Below, one piece after another: positions 120 to 6,035 of a DNA stretch of 6,035 nucleotides. Positions within the stretch are counted from its first letter, which is position 1. Every line of letters starts with the position of its first letter. The position numbers and the translations under genes were made by a program. Source of the stretch: a virus; IMG/VR virus record IMGVR_UViG_3300045988_002477; one strand, 5' to 3'. The notes below the pieces were generated by a model. That model had not been told where the DNA came from. It made no database searches and saw only the letters and a list, made by a program, of their open reading frames with translations.

Positions 120-525
120 CCTCTTCCTTCACCTCTTCCTTCTCCTCTTTCTGTTTCGGCTGTTCTGTCTGCTGTCCCTTTTTCAGTTGCTCCAGCGCTT
201 TGGCTGCTGCTTCTGCTTTTTCGTGCATCGTCACGATGTCCTTCGGCAGATTTTCGAGGTCTGTTCCCTCGGTGTATGCTACGCTTTTCGCCTTGATACT
301 CGTGTCTCCCGCTTCCAGTCGTGCGATTGCGCTTGCAAGGTCGTAGCCTTCTCCGGCTCGCTGGATTTTTTCGTATGTGTTCTCTTCCGGCTGCTCGATG
401 TATTCGGTAGTGCCATTCGGTCGCTTGACTGCTTTCCACGTTGGCGCGGTCTTGCTGCCCGGATTGTTTTTTACTCTTTCGGTCGGCAGTCCGTAGTATC
501 TTACCAGTGTATTAGGATTTAACAT
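94..525 (-). CDS. 143-aa protein with an acidic/lysine-rich C-terminal tail; putative internal scaffolding (VP3-like) protein
   Basis: ATG at 525 is preceded by GAAGGAGA with 6-nt spacing. The stop lies 25 nt upstream of the VP1 ATG across the junction, and the ORF overlaps the upstream gene by 14 nt. The central segment YTEGTDLENLPKDIVTMHEKAEAAAKAL loosely resembles the aromatic-x-D-x-T...LP...A...F pattern I recall in gokushovirus VP3. The functional call rests on size, position and composition only. Confidence 0.7.
   Translation of the reverse strand: MLNPNTLVRYYGLPTERVKNNPGSKTAPTWKAVKRPNGTTEYIEQPEENTYEKIQRAGEGYDLASAIARLEAGDTSIKAKSVAYTEGTDLENLPKDIVTMHEKAEAAAKALEQLKKGQQTEQPKQKEEKEEVKEEVKENEPKQ
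114..149. repeat. Three tandem copies of a 12-nt unit (ccttcacctctt x2, ccttctcctctt), encoding the (K/V)-containing EE repeat KEEKEEVKEEVKE at the C-terminus of the 143-aa protein
   Basis: Direct reading gives 114-125 = 126-137, and 138-149 differs at one base. On the coding strand the tract is purine-rich (AAGAGGTGAAGG). Confidence 0.9.
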
Positions 526-766
526 TGGCCGTCTCCTTCAGGTCGATGAGCCGTGCGATGTGTTCGGGCGCCGCTTCGCTCATGTAGCCGGTTTCGGTGT
601 CGAACTCGCCAAGCTCAACCAGACTGATATCTTCGATTTCACTCGGCTTGCTTTCGTTGGCTTTCCATCGTGCCGTTCGGATTGCCTGTGCTCGGTTGTT
701 CTGCAGAAACGGCTGAGAGTAGCCGTTGGTCAGTGCATCGTGGAATGAGTAGAATTTCAGTTTCAT
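512..766 (-). CDS. 84-aa conserved small microvirus non-structural protein (VP5/ORF5-like, the proposed analogue of phiX174 protein C)
   Basis: ATG at 766 is preceded by AAGGAG with 7-nt spacing, and the SD overlaps the stop of the upstream 34-aa ORF. The pattern F.D......QPF...N...A.R ... D..L.E.GE.D..TG matches my recollection of a small protein family common in gokushovirus genomes. The function is not verifiable here. Confidence 0.75.
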   Translation of the reverse strand: MKLKFYSFHDALTNGYSQPFLQNNRAQAIRTARWKANESKPSEIEDISLVELGEFDTETGYMSEAAPEHIARLIDLKETANVKS

Positions 767-778
767 GTTTTTTCTCCT

Positions 779-883
779 TTACTCTTCGTTGTTGTCGTCA
801 TTTTCTTTAACCACTGCATGGTAGATTTTGTCTACCATTGCAAGGATTTTCAAGAGGATATCCATGCTTTCCTTAAAATTCAT
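779..883 (-). CDS. 34-aa hypothetical protein MNFKESMDILLKILAMVDKIYHAVVKENDDNNEE (found by hand, below the ORF-track cutoff)
   Basis: ATG at 883 is preceded by AAAGGAGGTGA with about 7-nt spacing. The TAA stop (779-781) is embedded in the SD of the next gene. The ORF exactly fills an otherwise unexplained gap in a tightly packed operon. It is predicted to be an amphipathic helix plus an acidic tail, with no recognisable family. Confidence 0.5.
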   Translation of the reverse strand: MNFKESMDILLKILAMVDKIYHAVVKENDDNNEE

Positions 884-913: not shown

Positions 914-1030
914 TTACAGTCGGATGCCGCCCCGTGAGACCTTCGGTCGGACGTTGATGTTTTTCACGCGTTTTGCGGTCTGGGTAAAACGTTTCTGGTC
1001 TCCTCGGCCAGCTCCGCTTCTGTGTGCCAT
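914..1030 (-). CDS. 38-aa arginine/lysine-rich DNA-binding (packaging) peptide, J/ORF8-like: MAHRSGAGRGDQKRFTQTAKRVKNINVRPKVSRGGIRL (found by hand)
   Basis: ATG at 1030 is preceded by AAAGGGGGT with 6-nt spacing and starts 2 nt after the peptidase stop codon. The peptide has about 30% basic residues. The C-terminal RGGIRL resembles the ...MRGGIRF ending I recall for Chlamydia-phage ORF8, the analogue of phiX174 J. Confidence 0.7.
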   Translation of the reverse strand: MAHRSGAGRGDQKRFTQTAKRVKNINVRPKVSRGGIRL

Positions 1031-1032
1031 TT

Positions 1033-1425
1033 TTATACCCCCTTTCTGTATTTGTTAATGCGCGTATCAAAATGCACCCAACTGCTTTCTACGATGATTC
1101 CGCAGGAATCGCTTGGTACTATTTTGTTTAGCGTTTTTGCAATTTCTTTTGGTGTCATGTCTTTTACTATGATGTCTACAGCGCATCCCCTCATGTGGTA
1201 GCTGTACTTTGCACCGTTGACTTTTTTGTTGTGTTCTGGCGTCCGGTATCCGCTTGTTATGATTATCGGTTTATCAATTGTCTTTCGCAGAATTTCCAGT
1301 AGGCCTACCAGATAGTTATCCACGAATACTATTGGACTGCCGTCTTTGCAGGCAAACTCTTTTACCTTGAAGTGTTTTGTTATTTCTATGTTTCCTTGTT
1401 CTGGTACGACGTATGATTTAATCAT
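1033..1425 (-). CDS. Peptidase M15 family (M15A / Peptidase_M15_3-like, zinc D-Ala-D-Ala carboxypeptidase fold) peptidoglycan hydrolase; putative endolysin
   Basis: ATG at 1425 is preceded by AAGGAG with 6-nt spacing. The family motifs are present: FKVKEFACKDG near the N-terminus, SGYRTPEHN, the zinc ligands H77 and D84 in SYHMRGCAVD, and H118 in WVHFD. No N-terminal signal peptide or TM segment is visible. Confidence 0.88.
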   Translation of the reverse strand: MIKSYVVPEQGNIEITKHFKVKEFACKDGSPIVFVDNYLVGLLEILRKTIDKPIIITSGYRTPEHNKKVNGAKYSYHMRGCAVDIIVKDMTPKEIAKTLNKIVPSDSCGIIVESSWVHFDTRINKYRKGV

Positions 1426-1444
1426 GGTTTACTCCTTTTCTTTT

Positions 1445-1474
1445 ATTGTATCATAGATTGTAGCTTTTTTTCAA
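1445..1474 (-). promoter_or_regulatory. Candidate internal sigma70/sigmaA promoter upstream of the peptidase gene: TTGAAA-N18-TGaTACAAT
   Basis: On the minus strand, TTGAAA (1474->1469) overlaps the TGA stop of the 73-aa gene. It is followed by an 18-nt spacer and then TACAAT (1450->1445) preceded by an extended -10 TG. Confidence 0.35.
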
Positions 1475-1692
1475 TCATTTTTTAATTTTTTTTCAAACGC
1501 CCAAATACCTTCTGGAGGAATTTCCCATTCTTTGTAATTGTTGTCTTCATCCCATCTTGTTAGGTTTTCTACATAATTGTTGTACTTGTCGCTCCAGTCT
1601 CTAGTTATTTCGTACTCGTACTTTCCGCTGTACGCTTTTCCTTCGTTGTACAGCGTTTCGATTGTTCTTTTGCTAAGTCTTGGTTTTCTCAT
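1471..1692 (-). CDS. 73-aa hypothetical protein, rich in W/Y/E/K/N (MRKPRLSKRTIETLYNEGKAYSGKYEYEITRDWSDKYNNYVENLTRWDEDNNYKEWEIPPEGIWAFEKKLKND)
   Basis: The ORF track gives 86 aa starting at 1731, but that ATG lies between the -35 and -10 of a near-consensus promoter. The internal ATG at 1692 has GGAAGGTG at 6-nt spacing. No family is recognised and there is no TM segment. Confidence 0.65.
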   Translation of the reverse strand: MRKPRLSKRTIETLYNEGKAYSGKYEYEITRDWSDKYNNYVENLTRWDEDNNYKEWEIPPEGIWAFEKKLKND

Positions 1693-1714: not shown

Positions 1715-1747
1715 ATTATATTATACCACATTTTTTATATTTGTCAA
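1715..1747 (-). promoter_or_regulatory. Near-consensus sigma70/sigmaA promoter: TTGACA-N16-TGgTATAAT (a second overlapping TATAAT follows)
   Basis: On the minus strand, TTGACA is at 1747->1742. A 16-nt A-rich spacer follows, then the extended -10 TGG at 1728->1726 and TATAAT at 1725->1720, which overlaps a second TATAAT at 1720->1715. It faces the operon 73-aa gene -> peptidase -> J-like -> ... -> VP1. Confidence 0.7.
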
Positions 1748-1870
1748 TACCTTAAATTGATATATCACTTTGGAGCTTTGCTCCTTTGTTTTGATTGGCG
1801 CTTTAGCGCCCTGCCGTGTGGAGCGCACGCGGAACTCGGCTAAATCCATTCCTTTCTAGCGCTGTGCGCG

Positions 1871-2860
1871 TCAAACTTTCGGTTCACGCCACTTTTGCCT
1901 TAACTTGTCTTTTTCTTTCTGAATGTTGAGGTATGTTTCATAATCCACGCTGGTGCTTTGTTCGAGGTTGATTAAACTTTGTACTGCGCTCCGTCTGCGT
2001 CTGGCTCTAACCTCTCTCAGCTCGTCAGAATGTGCCTTAAAATAGCTTTCAGTGTCTTGGTTGGTATCTTTATCGATGATTTTGTCAAAATAGCGTGGTG
2101 GCCTTTTCTCGCGGCCTCCTGCACAGATGATGCTGTCTGTTTTTAAGATTTCATCTTTGTGCTCGTTCAGATACTTTTCTCCGATGCCTTTTGACATGAT
2201 TCTGAACTCTGGCTCTCTGCCCTGCATCCAGTATTTTACGCTTTCTTCTGCACCAATTGCTTTTTTGTTCACGTATTGTGCTACGTATGCATAGCTGCCT
2301 GGTTGTGCTGGTGAAAAGTCAATCATGCCTTTCCCCCAGATTTTTTCTAGCCATTCGCTTTTAAAATAGCTGTTGCCCTTTTGGTTCTTATACCATTGAG
2401 CATCCGGTGGCTTTAGCCCGAAAATAATCGCATGGTAGTGCGGCCTTTTTGTTCTGTCCCCATATTCAGCAGCTAGGAAATATTTTATTGGTTTCTTGTA
2501 TGCTTTTCGTAGACGTTTTAAAAATAGCTGCACGTCTCGCTTGCTTACTGTCTGACTTTGAATGCTTCTGTAGCCTTTGAGGATTTCTCCGTATGGAATA
2601 TGCTCATCGTCATACGTTAGTGTCAGAAAGATTACATCTTCCCATTCTTTTGCTTCTAGCTCAATTCTGGTTGCCCATTGGTCAGCCATTTGTTTTCGGC
2701 AATACTCGCATTTACCGCATGGTAATAGCGCGAATTTTCCTTTTTTGACACCGTCCATGATGTCCGTTTGCAGCCCTTGCTTTGATAGGTTTTCCAGACT
2801 TCCCCATAACTGTGGTTTTTTCGTGTCCATCTGAAATACTAATGGTTTTGTACATGGCAT
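1871..2860 (-). CDS. Rolling-circle replication initiation protein (Microviridae VP4 / phiX174 protein A analogue, HUH endonuclease)
   Basis: The 329-aa protein has an N-terminal MPCTKPL and the LPCGKCEYCR cysteine cluster typical of gokushovirus VP4. RCR motif I is FLTLTY (78-83), motif II is PHYHAIIFG (140-148), and motif III is the tyrosine pair in YAYVAQYVNKK (190-200). Confidence 0.95.
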   Translation of the reverse strand: MPCTKPLVFQMDTKKPQLWGSLENLSKQGLQTDIMDGVKKGKFALLPCGKCEYCRKQMADQWATRIELEAKEWEDVIFLTLTYDDEHIPYGEILKGYRSIQSQTVSKRDVQLFLKRLRKAYKKPIKYFLAAEYGDRTKRPHYHAIIFGLKPPDAQWYKNQKGNSYFKSEWLEKIWGKGMIDFSPAQPGSYAYVAQYVNKKAIGAEESVKYWMQGREPEFRIMSKGIGEKYLNEHKDEILKTDSIICAGGREKRPPRYFDKIIDKDTNQDTESYFKAHSDELREVRARRRRSAVQSLINLEQSTSVDYETYLNIQKEKDKLRQKWREPKV

Positions 2861-2867
2861 TTTGTTC

Positions 2868-2900
2868 CCGGCACAAGCTTCCTTGTCTATCTTGTGCCGG
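2868..2900 (-). promoter_or_regulatory. Perfect 10-bp inverted repeat (CCGGCACAAG / CTTGTGCCGG) with a 13-nt loop, ending 7 nt upstream of the rep ATG
   Basis: 2868-2877 is the exact reverse complement of 2891-2900. On the mRNA strand the loop AUAGACAAGGAAG holds the only SD-like sequence, about 17 nt from the AUG. A TATAAT (2923->2918, minus strand) lies just upstream. Confidence 0.7.
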
Positions 2901-2934
2901 TTGACACCTCGCTTTCTATTATATTAACTTGTTG

Positions 2935-2952
2935 TAGTAGTAGTAGTAGTAG
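2935..2952. repeat. (TAG)6 trinucleotide microsatellite, (CTA)6 on the coding strand
   Basis: Direct reading shows tagtagtagtagtagtag immediately abutting the first TGTTGAA repeat. It occupies the position where a -35 element for the TATAAT at 2918-2923 would lie. Confidence 0.95.
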
Positions 2953-3119
2953 TGTTGAAACTGTTGAAAACTCGTTTTTTTAACGTTGCTATGTTTATTT
3001 ATTGCTTTTTTGCCTGTTGAAAATTTTGTTGAAAACTTGTTGAATTGTTGAAAGTTCGTCATTATGACGGATTTTGTTGTGCACTTTTGTGTTGAAAACC
3101 TGTTGAAAGTGTTGAAAAC
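2953..3119 (+). repeat. Iteron-like array of nine same-orientation copies of TGTTGAA(A)(A)(C) in three clusters
   Basis: The copies are at 2953-2961 TGTTGAAAC, 2962-2971 TGTTGAAAAC, 3015-3024 TGTTGAAAAT, 3027-3036 TGTTGAAAAC, 3038-3045 TGTTGAAT, 3046-3054 TGTTGAAAG, 3090-3099 TGTTGAAAAC, 3101-3109 TGTTGAAAG and 3110-3119 TGTTGAAAAC. A degenerate TGTTGTG lies at 3075-3081. Spacing within a cluster is 8-12 nt, about one helical turn. Confidence 0.9.
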
Positions 3120-3133
3120 TTAAGTTTTCCACA
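3114..3133. promoter_or_regulatory. 16-nt perfect palindrome GAAAACTTAAGTTTTC (3114-3129) overlapping a DnaA-box match TTTTCCACA (3125-3133)
   Basis: The palindrome was read directly and is formed by the last iteron plus an inverted half-copy. TTTTCCACA fits the relaxed DnaA-box consensus TT(A/T)TNCACA at 9/9 positions. Confidence 0.6.
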
Positions 3134-3191
3134 TAGGATGCTCCTGACATAAATGTCGTGAGCATCTGACCACAGTATATATTTTGAGCTA

Positions 3192-3226
3192 GCACGCGCG
3201 CGCGCGCTTCGCGTGCGTGCGTGCAC
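3192..3226. repeat. Alternating purine-pyrimidine tract: GCAC(GC)6 - TTC - (GCGT)3GCAC; an imperfect palindrome with Z-DNA potential
   Basis: There are two 16-nt perfectly alternating R-Y runs (3192-3207 and 3211-3226). On the displayed strand they fold into 13 pairs, including three G-T wobbles, with a 3-nt loop. On the complementary strand those wobbles become A-C mismatches. Confidence 0.8.
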
Positions 3227-3259
3227 TTTGCCTTATATGCTGTTTGCACTTTAGCCACA

Positions 3260-3294
3260 GCGACAGTCCCCCCGCGTAGGGGGGGCGTTGTCGC
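3260..3294. repeat. Hairpin A: GCGACAG-T-CCCCCC / loop GCGTA / GGGGGG(G)-C-(GT bulge)-TGTCGC
   Basis: C6 (3268-3273) pairs with G6-7 (3279-3285), and 3260-3266 pairs with 3286 plus 3289-3294 around a 2-nt bulge. The left arm 3259-3268 can alternatively pair with 3359-3368 (GACTGTCGCT) as a perfect 10-bp long-range helix. Confidence 0.75.
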
Positions 3295-3340
3295 AAGGGG
3301 GGGACGAAAAACAGCGGCAATGTTTTTCGTCCCCCCTTGC
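3293..3340. repeat. Hairpin B: 16-bp perfect stem (GGGGGGACGAAAAACA / TGTTTTTCGTCCCCCC) with the 7-nt loop GCGGCAA; extendable to 20 bp with one bulged G
   Basis: 3298-3313 is the exact reverse complement of 3321-3336. With G3297 bulged, 3293-3296 also pairs with 3337-3340. Confidence 0.9.
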
Positions 3341-3417
3341 TTTATATGATTATGTTTTGACTGTCGCTTGTCTGGTGCCCCTGTGTTGGGGAACCTTAGC
3401 TTTGCGCGGAGGGGTTT

Positions 3418-4254
3418 TTAATTTCCTCTGTATGCGTTGAATGCGTCCATGTTTGGCATGATTGGCACTCTTTGGTTGTATTTTTTGAAGTTTCCTGCTG
3501 TTTCTTTGGTTGCTTTTTTGGCTTTTTCACCCGCTTTTGCAAGTCCTGAGCCTAACTTGTTAGCTGCATAGCTGTATTGTTGTACCTGTTTTGCGCTTGA
3601 GCTTGCTAGCTCGCTTGCTGACTGTTCCCAGGTTTTTGCAGCCTTATATTGTTTTGCGCTGGTACTCTGCTTTGCTAGCTGTAAGTATTTGTCCGCTAGT
3701 TCTGCCGTGTTGTTGCCGTATTCGTACATTGCCGATACACTTGCTGCTTGTGCGCTCTGTTGGTTATAACTTTGGCTTCCGATGTTTGCAGATGCTCCGC
3801 TTGTTGAGCTTGTCGCTCCGTTGGTTGCCGCTAGAATAGGGTTGATGCCAGCTGCAATCATGTCTTTTACAGTATCTTGATAGGCTGTTCCCCGCATTTC
3901 TTTTTGGAAAGCTCTTTCAGCTGCTGCTTCTGCGCTGTTGTATTTCTTGGCGCTTGCTTGGCTTCCTGCGTTTGCGAGGTTGCTTAATAGTCCGCTCATC
4001 ATTTGCAGTGCGTTTGCGGTGTTTACGCTGTTTTGATTTCCGAACATTGTGACGCCTGTTGGTGTACTAATTTGCGTTGCACCAATCTGCTGCGGTGCCG
4101 TTAAGCTTCCGGTTGTGCTCTCGCTACCTGTGCTGGTCTCGTTGCCTGATCCTTGGCTGTTTTTGGCGCTGCTCTGGTTGCTGCTTGTTGCGATGTTGGT
4201 TAACATGCCTAGTCCTTGCATGATGTACGGTAGTAACTGTAACAATGTCTCCAT
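3418..4254 (-). CDS. DNA pilot / minor capsid protein (Microviridae VP2, phiX174 protein H analogue)
   Basis: The 278-aa protein has S/T/Q/N/A-rich low-complexity flanks around the conserved core YNSAEAAAERAFQKEMRGTAYQDTVKDMIAAGINPILA, which is characteristic of microvirus VP2. It lies directly downstream of VP1. Confidence 0.9.
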   Translation of the reverse strand: METLLQLLPYIMQGLGMLTNIATSSNQSSAKNSQGSGNETSTGSESTTGSLTAPQQIGATQISTPTGVTMFGNQNSVNTANALQMMSGLLSNLANAGSQASAKKYNSAEAAAERAFQKEMRGTAYQDTVKDMIAAGINPILAATNGATSSTSGASANIGSQSYNQQSAQAASVSAMYEYGNNTAELADKYLQLAKQSTSAKQYKAAKTWEQSASELASSSAKQVQQYSYAANKLGSGLAKAGEKAKKATKETAGNFKKYNQRVPIMPNMDAFNAYRGN

Positions 4255-4282
4255 TTAAAAATAGCCCCGCTTTTGCGGGGCT
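4255..4282 (-). terminator. Intrinsic-terminator-like hairpin between VP1 and VP2: AGCCCCGC-AAAA-GCGGGGCT followed by ATTTTTAA, abutting the VP2 ATG
   Basis: The 8-bp GC-rich perfect stem (4275-4282 / 4263-4270) has a 4-nt loop and is followed by a T5 run on the minus strand. The element sits between the strong SD AAGGAGGA (4290->4283) and the VP2 ATG (4254). Confidence 0.6.
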
Positions 4283-4292
4283 TCCTCCTTTC

Positions 4293-5984
4293 TTAGATTC
4301 TCTCGATGCCGGGAATACTGTAGATAGGCATCTCCCGGAACCACTCTTCGCTGAAATAGAAATCACACAAGAACTGATGTGATACGTTGCTTGTTACTGC
4401 AATCGTCCTGTCGATGTTCTCTGTTCCTTCTTGAATCCATTCCGCCGATAGTCGCGGCAGAGTGGTATAGTGGTCCGCATAGTGCCATGCGTCCAGACTT
4501 GTTGCGAAGTTTGACCTCATTTCTCCGGTTACGTAAGAAGGCTTGTAGCGGTAGTCCGCCCACGCCTCTTGGTACCCAAAGATTTCGTTATCTTCTGACG
4601 TGCCTTGTGCATAGATTTCACGGTTGTATACCGGCTGTTCGCCCAGTGCTGCCAATCGCGGGTCGTAGTATGTGAATCGCCCGCCTCGTGTCCACTTGGT
4701 CGCAAGTCCCTGCTGGTAGCTGTGTTCTACTCGTACCACTGCCAGACCGATGATGTAGCCGTATTCGGTCGCTGCATAGTCAACCATCTGTTTGCTGCAC
4801 GTGGTCAGGCTGTACGCTGCGGTATTGCCCAGTGCCTGCCCGGTTGTCGTGTCCGTCTGGCTTGTCTGTACGACCTGATTAACGTTGATGGCGATACGCT
4901 GTCCGCCGATGTACTCGGGAATCTGCAGACGGCTGTCCGGACTTGTTACGCCCCACGTACCACTCAGGAATTCACGGTATCGCGTGCCGTTTCGTGCATC
5001 AGCCTCGAAGATGTGCTGCAGTGCAATGCTCATTCGGAGGTCTGCAATGCTGATTGCCGTTACGTTGTTCAGGTTGGCGTATAGGTTGCCTGTTAGGATG
5101 TTGCCGCCGTCTGGCTGAGTTGTTGCTCCGTTGGTGTCTAAGCCTGCCAGTTCTACCGCCGGGTATCCTGGTTGTGTATTCTGGTAATGCCGGTTGAAGG
5201 CTCGCCCTGCTCCTGCTCCCTTGCCGTTTAACCAGATGTCGGTGTCCATGTCGAATGCTTCTACTTTGCCGGTAACTTCGTTGTAGTTTCCCATGACGAC
5301 TGGTGCGTCACCTGTCAGGTTGATTTCCACAGGGTCAGATTTCAACGGCGACGGCATACAGGACGTGAAGTAGTCGTGGAACTTTCCCGCCTTTGCCGGT
5401 TTCATTGCGTATAACCACGCTGAATCGTTTGCCGTGGTATTTTCTGGTGCGTTTACTACCTTTCCGGCAATGGATGCCGGATTCGTAGATGATCCCCCTT
5501 TATCCGTTTTGTTATAGCCCAGCATCAACGGTGCTTCTAGGTTTTCGTCTCGAAACCATTCGTTGTAAATCATTGCGTATGCGCGTGCTGGCAGTGCGTT
5601 GACTTTGATTTTGTTTTTCACCTCGGTCGGCAGTCCAAAATAGTCGCCGATGCTGCCATTAGCTAGACCGCTTGTGCCGCCGATTTCACAACTTGGCGTG
5701 CTGTATTCAGTCTTTTCCGCCCAGTAATTGGTGTCATTCTCACCGAACATATTTTCGAAATGTTCCCACAGCAGACGTGTGGGCACAAAGAAGAAATATG
5801 TGTCCATATAGCAGTTATCCATGATAGGATAGATAGGAGTGCTCATGCGGATAAGCCCGTTCAAGCGCACCCGTGCCGTATCACCCGGAAGTACCTCGTC
5901 GAGGTAGATAGGTACCAGTTCGCCTTCGTTGATGGTCGTCAAGAGCTGGTGACTTCGGTCAAATTTGCTTCGTGGTCGTTGCAT
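4293..5984 (-). CDS. Major capsid protein (Microviridae VP1 / phiX174 protein F family)
   Basis: The 563-aa protein begins MQRPRSKFDRSHQLLTTINEGELVPIYLDEVLPGDT...FFFVPTRLLW, the hallmark N-terminal signature of microvirus major capsid proteins. Its size is typical for gokushovirus-like VP1. The start codon lies inside the terminal repeat (5984 = 68). No SD is visible within 25 nt of the ATG. Confidence 0.97.
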   Translation of the reverse strand: MQRPRSKFDRSHQLLTTINEGELVPIYLDEVLPGDTARVRLNGLIRMSTPIYPIMDNCYMDTYFFFVPTRLLWEHFENMFGENDTNYWAEKTEYSTPSCEIGGTSGLANGSIGDYFGLPTEVKNKIKVNALPARAYAMIYNEWFRDENLEAPLMLGYNKTDKGGSSTNPASIAGKVVNAPENTTANDSAWLYAMKPAKAGKFHDYFTSCMPSPLKSDPVEINLTGDAPVVMGNYNEVTGKVEAFDMDTDIWLNGKGAGAGRAFNRHYQNTQPGYPAVELAGLDTNGATTQPDGGNILTGNLYANLNNVTAISIADLRMSIALQHIFEADARNGTRYREFLSGTWGVTSPDSRLQIPEYIGGQRIAINVNQVVQTSQTDTTTGQALGNTAAYSLTTCSKQMVDYAATEYGYIIGLAVVRVEHSYQQGLATKWTRGGRFTYYDPRLAALGEQPVYNREIYAQGTSEDNEIFGYQEAWADYRYKPSYVTGEMRSNFATSLDAWHYADHYTTLPRLSAEWIQEGTENIDRTIAVTSNVSHQFLCDFYFSEEWFREMPIYSIPGIERI

Positions 5985-6035
5985 TCGCGGTACTTGTGCG
6001 AAATGGTTTTCACTGTTTCGGTTCGTTTTCCTTCA
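5917..6035. repeat. Right copy of the exact 119-nt terminal redundancy
   Basis: Identical to 1-119. The window ends exactly where the identity would continue, as expected for a linearised circle. Confidence 0.97.

What the first reader, a model, noticed from the sequence alone, without database searches (positions are those of the whole stretch)
1033..1425. Peptidase M15 cell-wall hydrolase in a 5.9-kb microvirus, with no holin, signal peptide or TM partner visible
Canonical microviruses lyse with a single-gene amurin (phiX174 E, an MraY inhibitor). For gokushoviruses no lysis gene is established. This genome instead spends about 7% of its length on a complete zinc M15-family peptidoglycan peptidase, with H77/D84/H118 and the SGYR and KEFACKDG motifs intact. 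I recall that M15 peptidase genes have been noted sporadically in metagenome-assembled microviruses, but their role has not been tested. None of the neighbouring small proteins (73, 38, 34 and 84 aa) has a hydrophobic segment long enough for a TM helix, and the enzyme has no secretion signal. How it reaches the murein is therefore unexplained. Candidates include an overlapping-frame membrane peptide, a virion-associated entry enzyme, or host-dependent export. A candidate dedicated promoter (1445-1474) sits directly upstream.
Basis: partly seen in the sequence, partly recalled or inferred. Interest (0 to 1): 0.65.

Follow-up and report, generated by a model that had tools for sequence, protein, structure and literature searches.

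The report
Wall-cutting enzyme in tiny gut phage
A 5.9-kb single-stranded-DNA gut phage carries an intact zinc enzyme that cuts bacterial cell wall, taken from larger phages without their membrane-hole partner; the gene has been known in such phages since 2012, but how the enzyme reaches the wall is still open.

Summary
Window 1033-1425 (- strand) encodes a 130-aa Peptidase_M15_3 protein (Pfam E 3.6e-21; PHROG 894 'endolysin' E 3e-41). H77, D84 and H118 are invariant, and the gene is under purifying selection. The window is a complete circular 5,916-nt gokushovirus.

It is not new. Roux et al. 2012 described M15_3 peptidases in human-gut gokushoviruses and proposed an endolysin role. The nearest GenBank genome (KX513876, 84.6% nt identity) already annotates 'peptidase M15'. 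Every sampled genome with VP1 at least 69% identical carries it.

The 'no holin' remark holds and applies to the whole clade. The coding strand of the window has no TM-grade segment in any frame. Of 172 related complete genomes, only one (L197) has a convincing 46-aa TM gene; it overlaps the M15 start. Cellular and tailed-phage homologues, mostly from Clostridia, usually sit next to small TM or holin genes.

Best reading: an endolysin captured without its holin, transcribed from the genome's strongest promoter and used for release. Membrane passage depends on an unidentified factor that M15-less sister genomes probably also use.

Interest is low to moderate. I also noticed a highly conserved, structured 90-nt non-coding element and an iteron array.

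The parts
1033..1425 (-). M15 peptidase gene (130 aa), a single-domain zinc peptidoglycan peptidase and candidate endolysin
   Evidence: Pfam PF08291 E 3.6e-21. PHROG 894 endolysin E 3e-41. H77, D84, H118, D120 and R61 are invariant in 48 homologues. A profile hits 1LBU at E 2.6e-5. AF2 mean pLDDT 84. BFVD phage peptidases TM 0.82-0.85. dN/dS about 0.06-0.2.
1432..1437 (-). Shine-Dalgarno AAGGAG, 6 nt before the M15 ATG
   Evidence: Read from the sequence. An SD-like GGAG/GAGG/AGGA lies upstream of 157 of 175 M15 genes in related genomes.
1445..1474 (-).
   Evidence: It is a pattern match only: 13 sites were found in the window against 6.5 expected.
1720..1747 (-). Perfect sigma70/sigmaA-type promoter TTGACA-16-(TG)TATAAT, the likely main promoter of the ORF73-M15-structural gene unit
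   Evidence: 12 of 12. In 151 of 186 related genomes, promoters matching at least 11 of 12 on the coding strand cluster 0-400 nt upstream of M15.
1471..1692 (-). ORF73, a hydrophilic accessory ORF between the promoter and M15. The ATG at 1731 lies inside the promoter, so the real start is probably 1692.
   Evidence: It is poorly conserved, found in 4 of 82 loci, with no Pfam, PHROG or NCBIfam hit.
914..1030 (-). 38-aa Arg/Lys-rich protein (VP8/J-like DNA-binding protein); its start lies 2 nt after the M15 stop
   Evidence: phrog_10695 E 4e-6. Found in all 82 loci.
779..883 (-). 34-aa amphipathic helix peptide with an acidic tail (family core ILxxxDxIYHA). It is conserved near M15 but is not specific to M15.
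   Evidence: It is present in 9 of 87 genomes that lack M15. Maximum KD19 is 1.35 with 4 charges, so it is not a TM helix.
3418..4254 (-). VP2 pilot protein. Its N-terminus is one of the more hydrophobic segments on the window's coding strand (KD19 1.18); several segments score higher, the highest 1.47.
   Evidence: phrog_18604 and pilot-protein PHROGs. In 88 of 172 related genomes the most hydrophobic 19-mer lies at the N-terminus of a 200-400-aa protein, which I take to be VP2.
1777..1871 (-). Conserved, structured non-coding element directly downstream of VP4 and upstream of the main promoter
   Evidence: About 87% nt identity in 152 of 196 genomes whose VP1 and VP4 are only about 40% identical. 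No codon periodicity. Two hairpins carry compensatory changes. No Rfam hit.

Best explanation
The gene encodes a functional single-domain zinc peptidoglycan peptidase (Pfam Peptidase_M15_3, MEROPS M15A-like, LAS fold). An ancestor of this gut gokushovirus lineage captured it from tailed (pro)phages of gut Clostridia, but without the neighbouring holin. It is transcribed from the strongest promoter of the genome together with the DNA-binding, scaffolding and capsid genes. It accumulates in the cytoplasm and serves as the wall-degrading effector at progeny release, that is, as an endolysin. Because it has no signal, SAR or TM segment and almost no genome of the clade has a holin, it must cross the membrane by a non-canonical route. 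The most likely route is the same still-unidentified gokushovirus function that lets M15-less sister genomes (and, by general knowledge, cultured gokushoviruses) exit their hosts. One candidate is membrane damage by the pilot protein VP2, whose weakly hydrophobic N-terminus is the most hydrophobic segment in about half of these genomes. Another is host-dependent, holin-independent export as known for some Firmicute phage lysins. Shown: enzyme family, intact active site, purifying selection, origin, expression signals, and absence of a holin. Inferred: the role in lysis and the route across the membrane.
For: Family and active site:
-. H77 and D84 align with H154 and D161 of the S. albus Zn DD-peptidase 1LBU.
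- AF2 model pLDDT 84.
- Foldseek gives TM 0.82-0.85 to phage peptidases, and finds 1lbu, hedgehog, VanY, ChiX and LdcB in the PDB.

Selection and expression:
- dN/dS is 0.06-0.2, and an SD is present in 157 of 175 genes.
- Near-consensus promoters cluster 0-400 nt upstream of M15 in 151 of 186 genomes.
- The window has a perfect promoter at 1747-1720.

Endolysin ancestry:
- Homologues of the same size (35-49% identical) are annotated endolysins in Faecalibacterium, Vibrio, Proteus, Salmonella and E. coli K1 phages.
- FP_oengus has a holin two genes downstream.
- The Vibrio phage homologue is flanked by 'TMhelix' proteins.
- The closest cellular homologues (37-48%) are almost all Clostridia, and 34 of 41 have a small TM ORF within 1.5 kb.

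The holin-less state is clade-wide:
-.
- The one exception, L197, has a 46-aa TM gene with an ATG and an SD. It lies just after the promoter and overlaps the M15 start by 22 nt, which is the classic holin-endolysin layout.

M15-less sister genomes also lack TM ORFs, so a separate exit function must exist.

Literature: Roux 2012 reached the endolysin hypothesis. Kirchberger 2020 and 2022 treat these genes as lysis-associated.
Against: - No activity has been shown for any microviral M15 in the literature I could search.
- An endolysin with no way across the membrane is inert in classical systems, and no partner was identified here.
- The AF2 model is poor exactly around H77 (residues 71-78, pLDDT below 50).
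- PDB structural matches are weak (TM about 0.48, E 4e-3).
- M15A domains also occur in virion-associated hydrolases of tailed phages, so homology alone does not separate exit from entry.
- The host is unknown.
Confidence: 0.6

Rival explanations
1. Virion-associated entry enzyme. M15 is packaged in or on the capsid and opens the (possibly thick, Gram-positive) wall locally at infection, so it never needs to cross the membrane from inside.
For: M15A domains are found as modules of large tail or baseplate proteins (Gp5 OB-fold proteins, 500-1,190-aa 'cell wall hydrolases') in tailed phages. The gene is co-transcribed with structural genes. The M15 ancestry, SD use and sigmaA-type promoters fit a Clostridial host with a thick wall.
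Against: The closest homologues are free-standing endolysins of the same size next to holins. There is no extra domain or fusion to VP1 or VP2 in any of the 120 best homologues; their lengths are 117-172 aa and the N-terminal extensions are hydrophilic read-through of upstream sequence. L197 pairs the gene with a holin-like TM gene. From general knowledge, no T=1 microvirus is known to package an enzyme.
Confidence: 0.1
2. Enzymatic amurin. M15 acts in the cytoplasm on soluble or lipid-linked wall precursors (UDP-MurNAc-pentapeptide or lipid II peptide stems, as VanX/VanY-type M15 enzymes do). This starves wall synthesis so that growing cells lyse, with no export needed.
For: It would explain the lack of a holin or signal across about 170 genomes. 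It also matches the microvirus habit of lysing by blocking wall synthesis (phiX174 E). The M15 clan includes precursor-cleaving enzymes (VanY appears among the PDB matches).
Against: The sequence matches only M15_3 and M15_2 (the secreted DD-peptidase and the periplasmic MepK type). It does not match the VanX or VanY Pfam families, and the NCBIfam match to MepK is weak. Its closest relatives work with holins on mature wall. From general knowledge, tailed-phage endolysins sit in the cytoplasm for minutes without causing lysis. L197 has a holin-like partner.
Confidence: 0.07
3. A hidden membrane partner exists in the window: an overprinted or antisense TM peptide, or the conserved 34-44-aa amphipathic peptide next to M15 acting as a holin substitute or chaperone.
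For: An 88-aa antisense ORF with 2-3 hydrophobic stretches (1577-1843, + strand) lies just upstream of M15 and gives tblastn hits in 58 loci. Roux 2012 noted one complementary-strand ORF beside a peptidase. The amphipathic peptide is adjacent to, or one gene from, M15 in three different gene orders.
Against: The antisense strand yields 61 hydrophobic segments purely from T-richness. The antisense 'conservation' is explained by a non-coding element conserved at all codon positions, with hairpin covariation. On the coding strand the best overprinted segment (5666-5842, KD 1.47) has no start codon and is not hydrophobic in relatives. The peptide is not TM-grade. It occurs in 9 of 87 genomes that lack M15 and is absent from bacterial M15 loci.
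Confidence: 0.08
4. The gene is not a lysis or entry gene. It could be a wall-remodelling or other accessory function (for example superinfection exclusion), or selfish cargo that spreads by recombination.
For: Two M15 alleles only about 44% identical to each other occur in genomes with 75-90% identical VP1. Conversely, 62-79% identical M15 occurs in genomes with about 40% identical VP1, showing frequent exchange. Complete sister genomes do without it.
Against: The gene is under strong purifying selection with an invariant active site. It is fixed in every sampled genome with at least 69% VP1 identity. It sits behind the strongest promoter. A 6.6% genome cost in a size-limited capsid argues for an important function.
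Confidence: 0.05

Closest known systems
M15_3 peptidases of human-gut Gokushovirinae (Roux et al. 2012, PMC3394797; GenBank KX513876 ARQ16041.1 and KX513868 ARQ16010.1 'peptidase M15')
   Same: Same gene in the same virus lineage. KX513876 is 84.6% identical in nucleotides over 81% of the window, with the peptidase in the same place. The same Firmicute (Faecalibacterium/Clostridiales) affinity and the same endolysin hypothesis were already stated.
   Different: Only sequence divergence. This study adds the clade-wide absence of holins, the position behind the main promoter, allele replacement, and M15-less sister genomes.
Single-domain M15 endolysins of tailed phages (PHROG 894; e.g. Faecalibacterium phage FP_oengus AUV56575, Vibrio phage 1.047.O AUR84035, SP6/K1E-like podoviruses)
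   Same: Same fold and size (113-140 aa), 35-49% identity, and no signal peptide.
   Different: They lie in lysis cassettes with a holin or small TM proteins. The microvirus copy has none, except in L197.
Streptomyces albus G zinc D-Ala-D-Ala carboxypeptidase (PDB 1LBU; type enzyme of MEROPS M15A)
   Same: Only solved structure matched by sequence at E below 0.01 (profile E 2.6e-5). The SxHxxGxAxD metal-binding motif is shared, and H77 and D84 align with H154 and D161. It is the best true PDB structural neighbour.
   Different: It is a secreted 213-aa enzyme with an extra N-terminal wall-binding domain. Identity is only about 23%. Its bond specificity cannot be transferred.
phiX174 protein E (amurin, single-gene lysis)
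   Same: A lysis function in a microvirus, expressed from the structural-gene transcript.
   Different: E is a 91-aa TM peptide overprinted in gene D that inhibits MraY. Here there is no overprinted TM peptide, and instead there is a free-standing enzyme of foreign origin.
Holin-independent endolysins (SAR endolysins such as P1 Lyz; Sec-exported Lys44 of fOg44; pneumococcal SV1 lysin Svl; mycobacteriophage Ms6 LysA with chaperone Gp1). These are recalled from general knowledge and were not tested here.
   Same: Precedents for a lysin reaching the wall without a holin, mostly in Gram-positive hosts. This is how the microvirus enzyme may work.
   Different: No SAR or signal sequence is present. 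No choline-binding or other targeting domain is present. No Gp1-like partner could be tied to M15.

Membership tests
Pfam Peptidase_M15_3 (PF08291) / MEROPS M15A-like zinc peptidases | Profile match above the curated gathering score over the whole domain | tested here: met
   75.7 bits against a cut-off of 23.2, E 3.6e-21, model positions 1-108 of 108.
Pfam Peptidase_M15_3 (PF08291) / MEROPS M15A-like zinc peptidases | Zinc ligands H-x6-D plus a C-terminal H, and the substrate-binding Arg of the SGYR motif | tested here: met
   H77, D84, H118 (with D120) and R61 are invariant in 48 homologues of 65-85% identity. H77 and D84 align with H154 and D161 of 1LBU.
Pfam Peptidase_M15_3 (PF08291) / MEROPS M15A-like zinc peptidases | LAS / hedgehog-DD-peptidase fold | tested here: met
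   AF2 pLDDT 84, pTM 0.79. BFVD M15 and M15A peptidases TM 0.82-0.85, E 1e-14. PDB 1lbu, hedgehog N-domains, VanY, ChiX and LdcB match with probability 0.9-1.0 but TM only about 0.45-0.49, and the loop 71-78 is modelled poorly.
Pfam Peptidase_M15_3 (PF08291) / MEROPS M15A-like zinc peptidases | Zinc-dependent cleavage of a peptidoglycan peptide bond | not testable with these tools
   Needs purified protein, a zymogram and muropeptide analysis.
Canonical holin-endolysin lysis cassette | Endolysin homologous to known phage endolysins | tested here: met
   PHROG 894. Annotated endolysins in 715 phage records.
Canonical holin-endolysin lysis cassette | Small TM protein (holin) encoded next to the endolysin | tested here: not met
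   No coding-strand segment reaches KD19 of 1.6 in the window. Only 1 convincing case (L197) exists in 172 related genomes. As a positive control, 34 of 41 cellular homologues have one.
Secreted or SAR endolysins | N-terminal signal peptide or signal-anchor-release segment | tested here: not met
   The N-terminus MIKSYVVPEQGNIEITKH is hydrophilic. The maximum KD19 of the protein is 1.20, with 4 charges in that window. Longer database variants carry only basic, hydrophilic extensions.
Amurin / single-gene lysis peptide (phiX174 E type) | TM peptide, often overprinted in another gene | tested here: not met
   All stop-to-stop segments of 20 aa or more in the three coding-strand frames score below 1.6. 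The best (5666-5842) lacks a start codon and is not conserved as hydrophobic.
Gokushovirinae (Microviridae) | Circular genome of about 4.5-6.5 kb with VP1 (Phage_F), VP2 pilot, VP4 Rep, VP5 and VP3 scaffold on one strand | tested here: met
   Circular, 5,916 nt. PF02305 E 3e-147, PF23343, PF20577, and PF09675 weak (21.9 bits against a cut-off of 25). PHROGs. The nearest records are classified as Gokushovirinae.

The most novel reading that the evidence does not exclude
The enzyme never leaves the cytoplasm. It lyses the host by cleaving wall precursors (UDP-MurNAc-pentapeptide or lipid II stems). That would make it an 'enzymatic amurin': a microvirus blocking wall synthesis with a catalytic protein rather than an inhibitor peptide. 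It would explain why about 170 genomes carry M15 with no holin.
Probability: 0.07. Interest if true: 0.8.

Novelty: already known. Interest (0 to 1): 0.3.

Why it matters
How gokushoviruses leave their hosts is still unknown, and these are among the most abundant ssDNA phages of the human gut. This clade offers a handle on that question. It has a conserved, highly expressed wall hydrolase with no visible way across the membrane. There are natural controls: complete sister genomes without M15, and one genome (L197) with a holin-like gene fused to the M15 start. The Clostridial ancestry of the enzyme, the strong Shine-Dalgarno sites and the sigmaA-type promoters also point to Gram-positive Clostridia as hosts. 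Those would be hosts for which microviruses are barely documented. None of this changes the fact that the gene itself is a published, annotated feature.

Tried and rejected
- **Antisense 88-aa hydrophobic ORF (1577-1843, + strand) as a hidden holin: rejected.** The + strand gives 61 such segments from composition alone. Its apparent conservation comes from a non-coding element conserved at every position, with hairpin covariation.
- **Overprinted hydrophobic segment inside VP1 (5666-5842): rejected.** It has no start codon, and the same alternative frame is not hydrophobic in relatives.
- **Conserved 34-44-aa amphipathic peptide as an M15-specific partner: rejected as specific.** It is present in 9 of 87 peptide-bearing genomes that lack M15 and absent from bacterial M15 loci. 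It has no family match.
- **Longer M15 variants (139-172 aa) as carriers of signal peptides: rejected.** Their extensions are hydrophilic.
- **Search for integrated microvirus copies in 185,579 reference genomes through M15: none found.** Only tailed-prophage-type homologues of at most 48% identity turned up, so there is no direct host link.
- **Homologues of the L197 TM peptide: none found,** in 5.8 billion proteins, in IMG/VR or in the loci held. Other short TM-like ORFs in relatives have GTG or TTG starts, or no SD and odd positions.
- **Rfam search of the window:** no hit.
- **Bochtler 2004,** wanted to confirm the 1LBU ligand numbering, is not held in the library.

Full report
**What the window is.** Bases 1-119 repeat exactly at 5917-6035, so the window is a complete circular genome of 5,916 nt. 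All recognisable genes lie on the - strand:
- VP1 5984-4293 (Phage_F, E 3e-147)
- VP2 pilot protein 4254-3418
- a 557-nt non-coding region
- VP4 Rep 2860-1871
- a small ORF 1692-1471
- the M15 gene 1425-1033
- a 38-aa Arg-rich protein 1030-914
- a 34-44-aa peptide 913/883-779
- VP5 766-512
- VP3 525-94

The nearest GenBank record is Human gut gokushovirus KX513876, at 84.6% identity over 81% of the window. Its annotation already contains 'peptidase M15' at the same position. A second record, KX513868, has the same annotation.

**Checking the observation.** The 130-aa ORF matches Pfam Peptidase_M15_3 end to end (75.7 bits against a cut-off of 23.2, E 3.6e-21). It also matches PHROG 894 'endolysin' (E 3e-41). 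In an alignment of 48 homologues at 65-85% identity, H77, D84, H118, D120 and R61 of SGYR never vary. A profile of that alignment finds the zinc DD-peptidase 1LBU at E 2.6e-5, with H77 and D84 on H154 and D161 (single sequence).

An AlphaFold model has mean pLDDT 84. It superposes on predicted phage M15 and M15A peptidases with TM 0.82-0.85. In the PDB it finds 1lbu, hedgehog N-domains, VanY, ChiX and LdcB, which are the LAS fold, but only weakly (TM about 0.45-0.49). The loop around H77 is poorly modelled.

Against relatives, dN/dS is about 0.06-0.2.

**It is a known feature.** Roux et al. 2012 reported M15_3 peptidases in five gut gokushoviruses and six alpaviruses. They traced the gokushovirus copies to Faecalibacterium-like Firmicutes, noted that bacterial and prophage homologues sit beside holins, and proposed an endolysin role (PMC3394797). 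Later work treats such peptidases as lysis-associated accessory genes that are exchanged between microviruses (PMC9239249; PMC7062461; PMC11499846; PMC9865509). I found no paper in the searchable library that tests the activity of a microviral M15 or discusses the missing holin.

**How common it is here.** A search of 5.8 billion proteins gave 1,213 homologues at E of 1e-5 or better. The best 120 all lie on contigs no longer than about 8.6 kb, mostly of microvirus size. IMG/VR holds at least 232 loci. Every sampled locus with VP1 at least 69% identical to the window's carries M15, and all 63 complete-size genomes with more than 50% VP1 identity have it.

Two M15 alleles occur within this VP1 group, at about 60-68% and 40-48% identity to the window's. 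Conversely, genomes with only about 40% identical VP1 share 62-79% identical M15. The gene is therefore exchanged by recombination, as Kirchberger et al. saw elsewhere.

**The missing holin.** In the window, no stop-to-stop segment of 20 aa or more in any coding-strand frame reaches the classical Kyte-Doolittle threshold of 1.6. The best scores are:
- 1.47, for a start-less alternative frame inside VP1
- 1.35, for the amphipathic small peptide
- 1.18, for the VP2 N-terminus

The T-rich antisense strand gives 61 such segments by composition.

The scan has positive controls. Among the closest cellular homologues (37-48% identical, almost all Clostridia: Oscillospiraceae, Acutalibacteraceae, Lachnospiraceae, Lacrimispora, Faecalibacterium), 34 of 41 have a small TM ORF within 1.5 kb on the same strand. 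Faecalibacterium phage FP_oengus and a Vibrio phage have annotated holin or TM-helix neighbours.

Across 172 complete related microvirus genomes, only 10 have any coding-strand ORF at or above 1.6. Two of these are VP2 N-termini. Most of the rest are short ORFs with GTG or TTG starts or no ribosome-binding site, or artefacts of upstream extension.

The single convincing case is L197. It has a 46-aa ORF, METLAAVGIIIAIIGMTAATASLIILMVQMVKDMKGESKKWKSNHM, with an ATG and a GAGG Shine-Dalgarno. It lies directly after the promoter and overlaps the M15 start by 22 nt, which is the classic holin-endolysin layout. It has no homologue anywhere I could search. It shows what a partner would look like, and that the other genomes lack one.

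**Candidates for a partner that I tested.**
- The conserved 33-46-aa amphipathic peptide (core ILxxxDxIYHA with an acidic tail) lies next to M15, or one gene away, in three different gene orders. However, nine of 87 genomes that carry the peptide have no M15, among them complete circles such as L200 and L274. It is a lineage gene, not an M15-specific partner. Those M15-less genomes also lack TM ORFs.
- The antisense 88-aa ORF upstream of M15 is explained by a conserved non-coding element (see the last section).
- The longer M15 variants in the databases carry only hydrophilic N-terminal read-through.

**Expression.** The window's best promoter match is a perfect TTGACA-16-TGgTATAAT at 1747-1720. 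It overlaps the ATG at 1731, so the upstream ORF probably starts at 1692. In 151 of 186 related genomes, promoters matching at least 11 of 12 on the coding strand fall almost entirely within 0-400 nt upstream of M15.

M15 has an AAGGAG site 6 nt before its ATG, and 157 of 175 relatives have an SD there. The 38-aa gene starts 2 nt after the M15 stop. M15 is thus the first or second gene of the main transcription unit, which runs on into the structural genes. This resembles phiX174 E in the D-E-J-F-G-H unit (general knowledge).

**Likely host.** Three features fit Clostridia (Bacillota): the Clostridial ancestry of M15, the strong SD sites and the sigma70/sigmaA promoters with extended -10. They argue against Bacteroidota, which by general knowledge use neither. 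No integrated copy was found in reference genomes, so this remains an inference. Microviruses of Gram-positive bacteria are barely documented (PMC9239249).

**Mechanism.** I commit to the endolysin reading, with confidence about 0.6. A captured single-domain wall peptidase is made abundantly with the structural proteins and degrades the sacculus at release.

The step across the membrane is unexplained. M15-less sister genomes also encode no TM, holin or amurin-like gene, and by general knowledge cultured gokushoviruses still lyse their hosts. The clade must therefore possess another, unidentified membrane- or wall-compromising function, and M15 most plausibly depends on it. One candidate is the VP2 pilot protein, whose N-terminus is the most hydrophobic stretch in 88 of 172 genomes. 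Another is host-dependent, holin-independent export of the kind known for some Firmicute phage lysins (general knowledge).

The rivals are:
- a packaged entry enzyme (0.10)
- cytoplasmic cleavage of precursors, an 'enzymatic amurin' (0.07)
- a hidden partner (0.08)
- a non-lysis role (0.05)

The sequence resembles secreted or periplasmic M15_3, M15_2 and MepK-type enzymes rather than VanX or VanY, which weighs against the precursor idea.

**Verdict.** It is an incremental question about a known gene. Interest 0.3.

**Seen in passing.** A roughly 90-nt element just downstream of VP4 (1871-1777, - strand) is about 87% identical in 152 of 196 genomes whose proteins are only about 40% identical. 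It shows no codon periodicity. It folds into two hairpins with compensatory changes: G-C/A-T in 77/42 sequences, T-A/C-G in 71/47, and G-C/A-T/G-T in 80/18/16. It has no Rfam match.

The VP2-VP4 spacer holds eight exact TTTCAACA repeats (0.28 expected), three GC-rich hairpins, a (TAC)6 run, and a hairpin just before the VP4 start. In many relatives the repeat block lies inverted and fused to the 90-nt element between VP4 and M15. These look like replication or packaging signals and may deserve their own study.

Noticed in passing
window 1777-1871 (- strand), directly after the VP4 stop and before the promoter at 1747-1720: A roughly 90-nt non-coding element is conserved at about 87% nt identity in 152 of 196 related genomes whose VP1 and VP4 are only about 40% identical. 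It has no codon periodicity. Two hairpins (GCCG..CGGC and GGCGC-TAAA-GCGCC) carry compensatory changes: GC/AT in 77/42 sequences, TA/CG in 71/47. There is no Rfam hit. It could be a replication origin, a complementary-strand priming signal or a packaging signal.
   Followed up: partly
window 2950-3120 (- strand), in the VP2-VP4 intergenic region 2861-3417: An iteron-like array holds 8 exact copies of TTTCAACA (0.28 expected by chance), usually as GTTTTCAACA. A (TAC)6 run follows at about 2934-2951. The block is conserved at DNA level in distant gokushoviruses (88.5% to KT264791) and is found in either orientation: 22 same and 47 inverted among 69 loci. In the other common gene order it lies between VP4 and M15, fused to the 90-nt element.
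   Followed up: partly
window 3192-3338 and 2868-2899: Three GC-rich hairpins stand out in an otherwise AT-rich genome. They are a perfect 16-18-bp stem at 3296-3338, a C7/G6 stem near 3266-3284, and an alternating GC stretch at 3192-3226. A further hairpin, ccggcacaag..cttgtgccgg, ends 8 nt before the VP4 ATG and may control VP4 translation.
   Followed up: no
L197:2802-2942 (+), IMGVR_UViG_3300045988_062519: This is the only related genome with a convincing TM gene. The 46-aa ORF, METLAAVGIIIAIIGMTAATASLIILMVQMVKDMKGESKKWKSNHM, has KD19 of 2.5, an ATG and a GAGG SD. It lies just after a TTGAAA-17-TATAAT promoter and overlaps the M15 start by 22 nt. It is a candidate holin or single-gene-lysis peptide with no homologue in any searched collection.
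   Followed up: yes
L200, L204, L208, L213, L215, L274, L279 (whole loci): This sister lineage (VP1 about 47% identical, genomes 5.3-5.55 kb, some with terminal repeats and therefore complete) lacks M15. It keeps the amphipathic peptide, the Arg-rich protein and VP5, and it has no TM ORF either. These genomes are natural M15-minus controls.
   Followed up: partly
window 779-883 (- strand) and homologues in 123 loci: A family of 33-46-aa peptides has an invariant I-L...D-x-I-Y-H core and an acidic tail, and is predicted to form an amphipathic helix. There is no Pfam or PHROG match. Its position shuffles relative to M15 and the Arg-rich gene (three gene orders). Function unknown.
   Followed up: partly
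window 4263-4282 (- strand), between the VP1 stop and the VP2 start: An intrinsic-terminator-like hairpin, AGCCCCGC-AAAA-GCGGGGCT followed by ATTTTT, lies right after the major capsid gene. This is consistent with attenuation of transcription after VP1.
   Followed up: no
window 512-766 (VP5) and 1871-2860 (VP4) compared with loci L085-L134: Conservation is mosaic. In genomes with 74-91% identical VP1, VP4 falls into classes of about 94% and about 80%, VP5 into about 95% and about 75%, and M15 into about 62% and about 42%. This indicates module exchange among closely related gut gokushoviruses.
   Followed up: no
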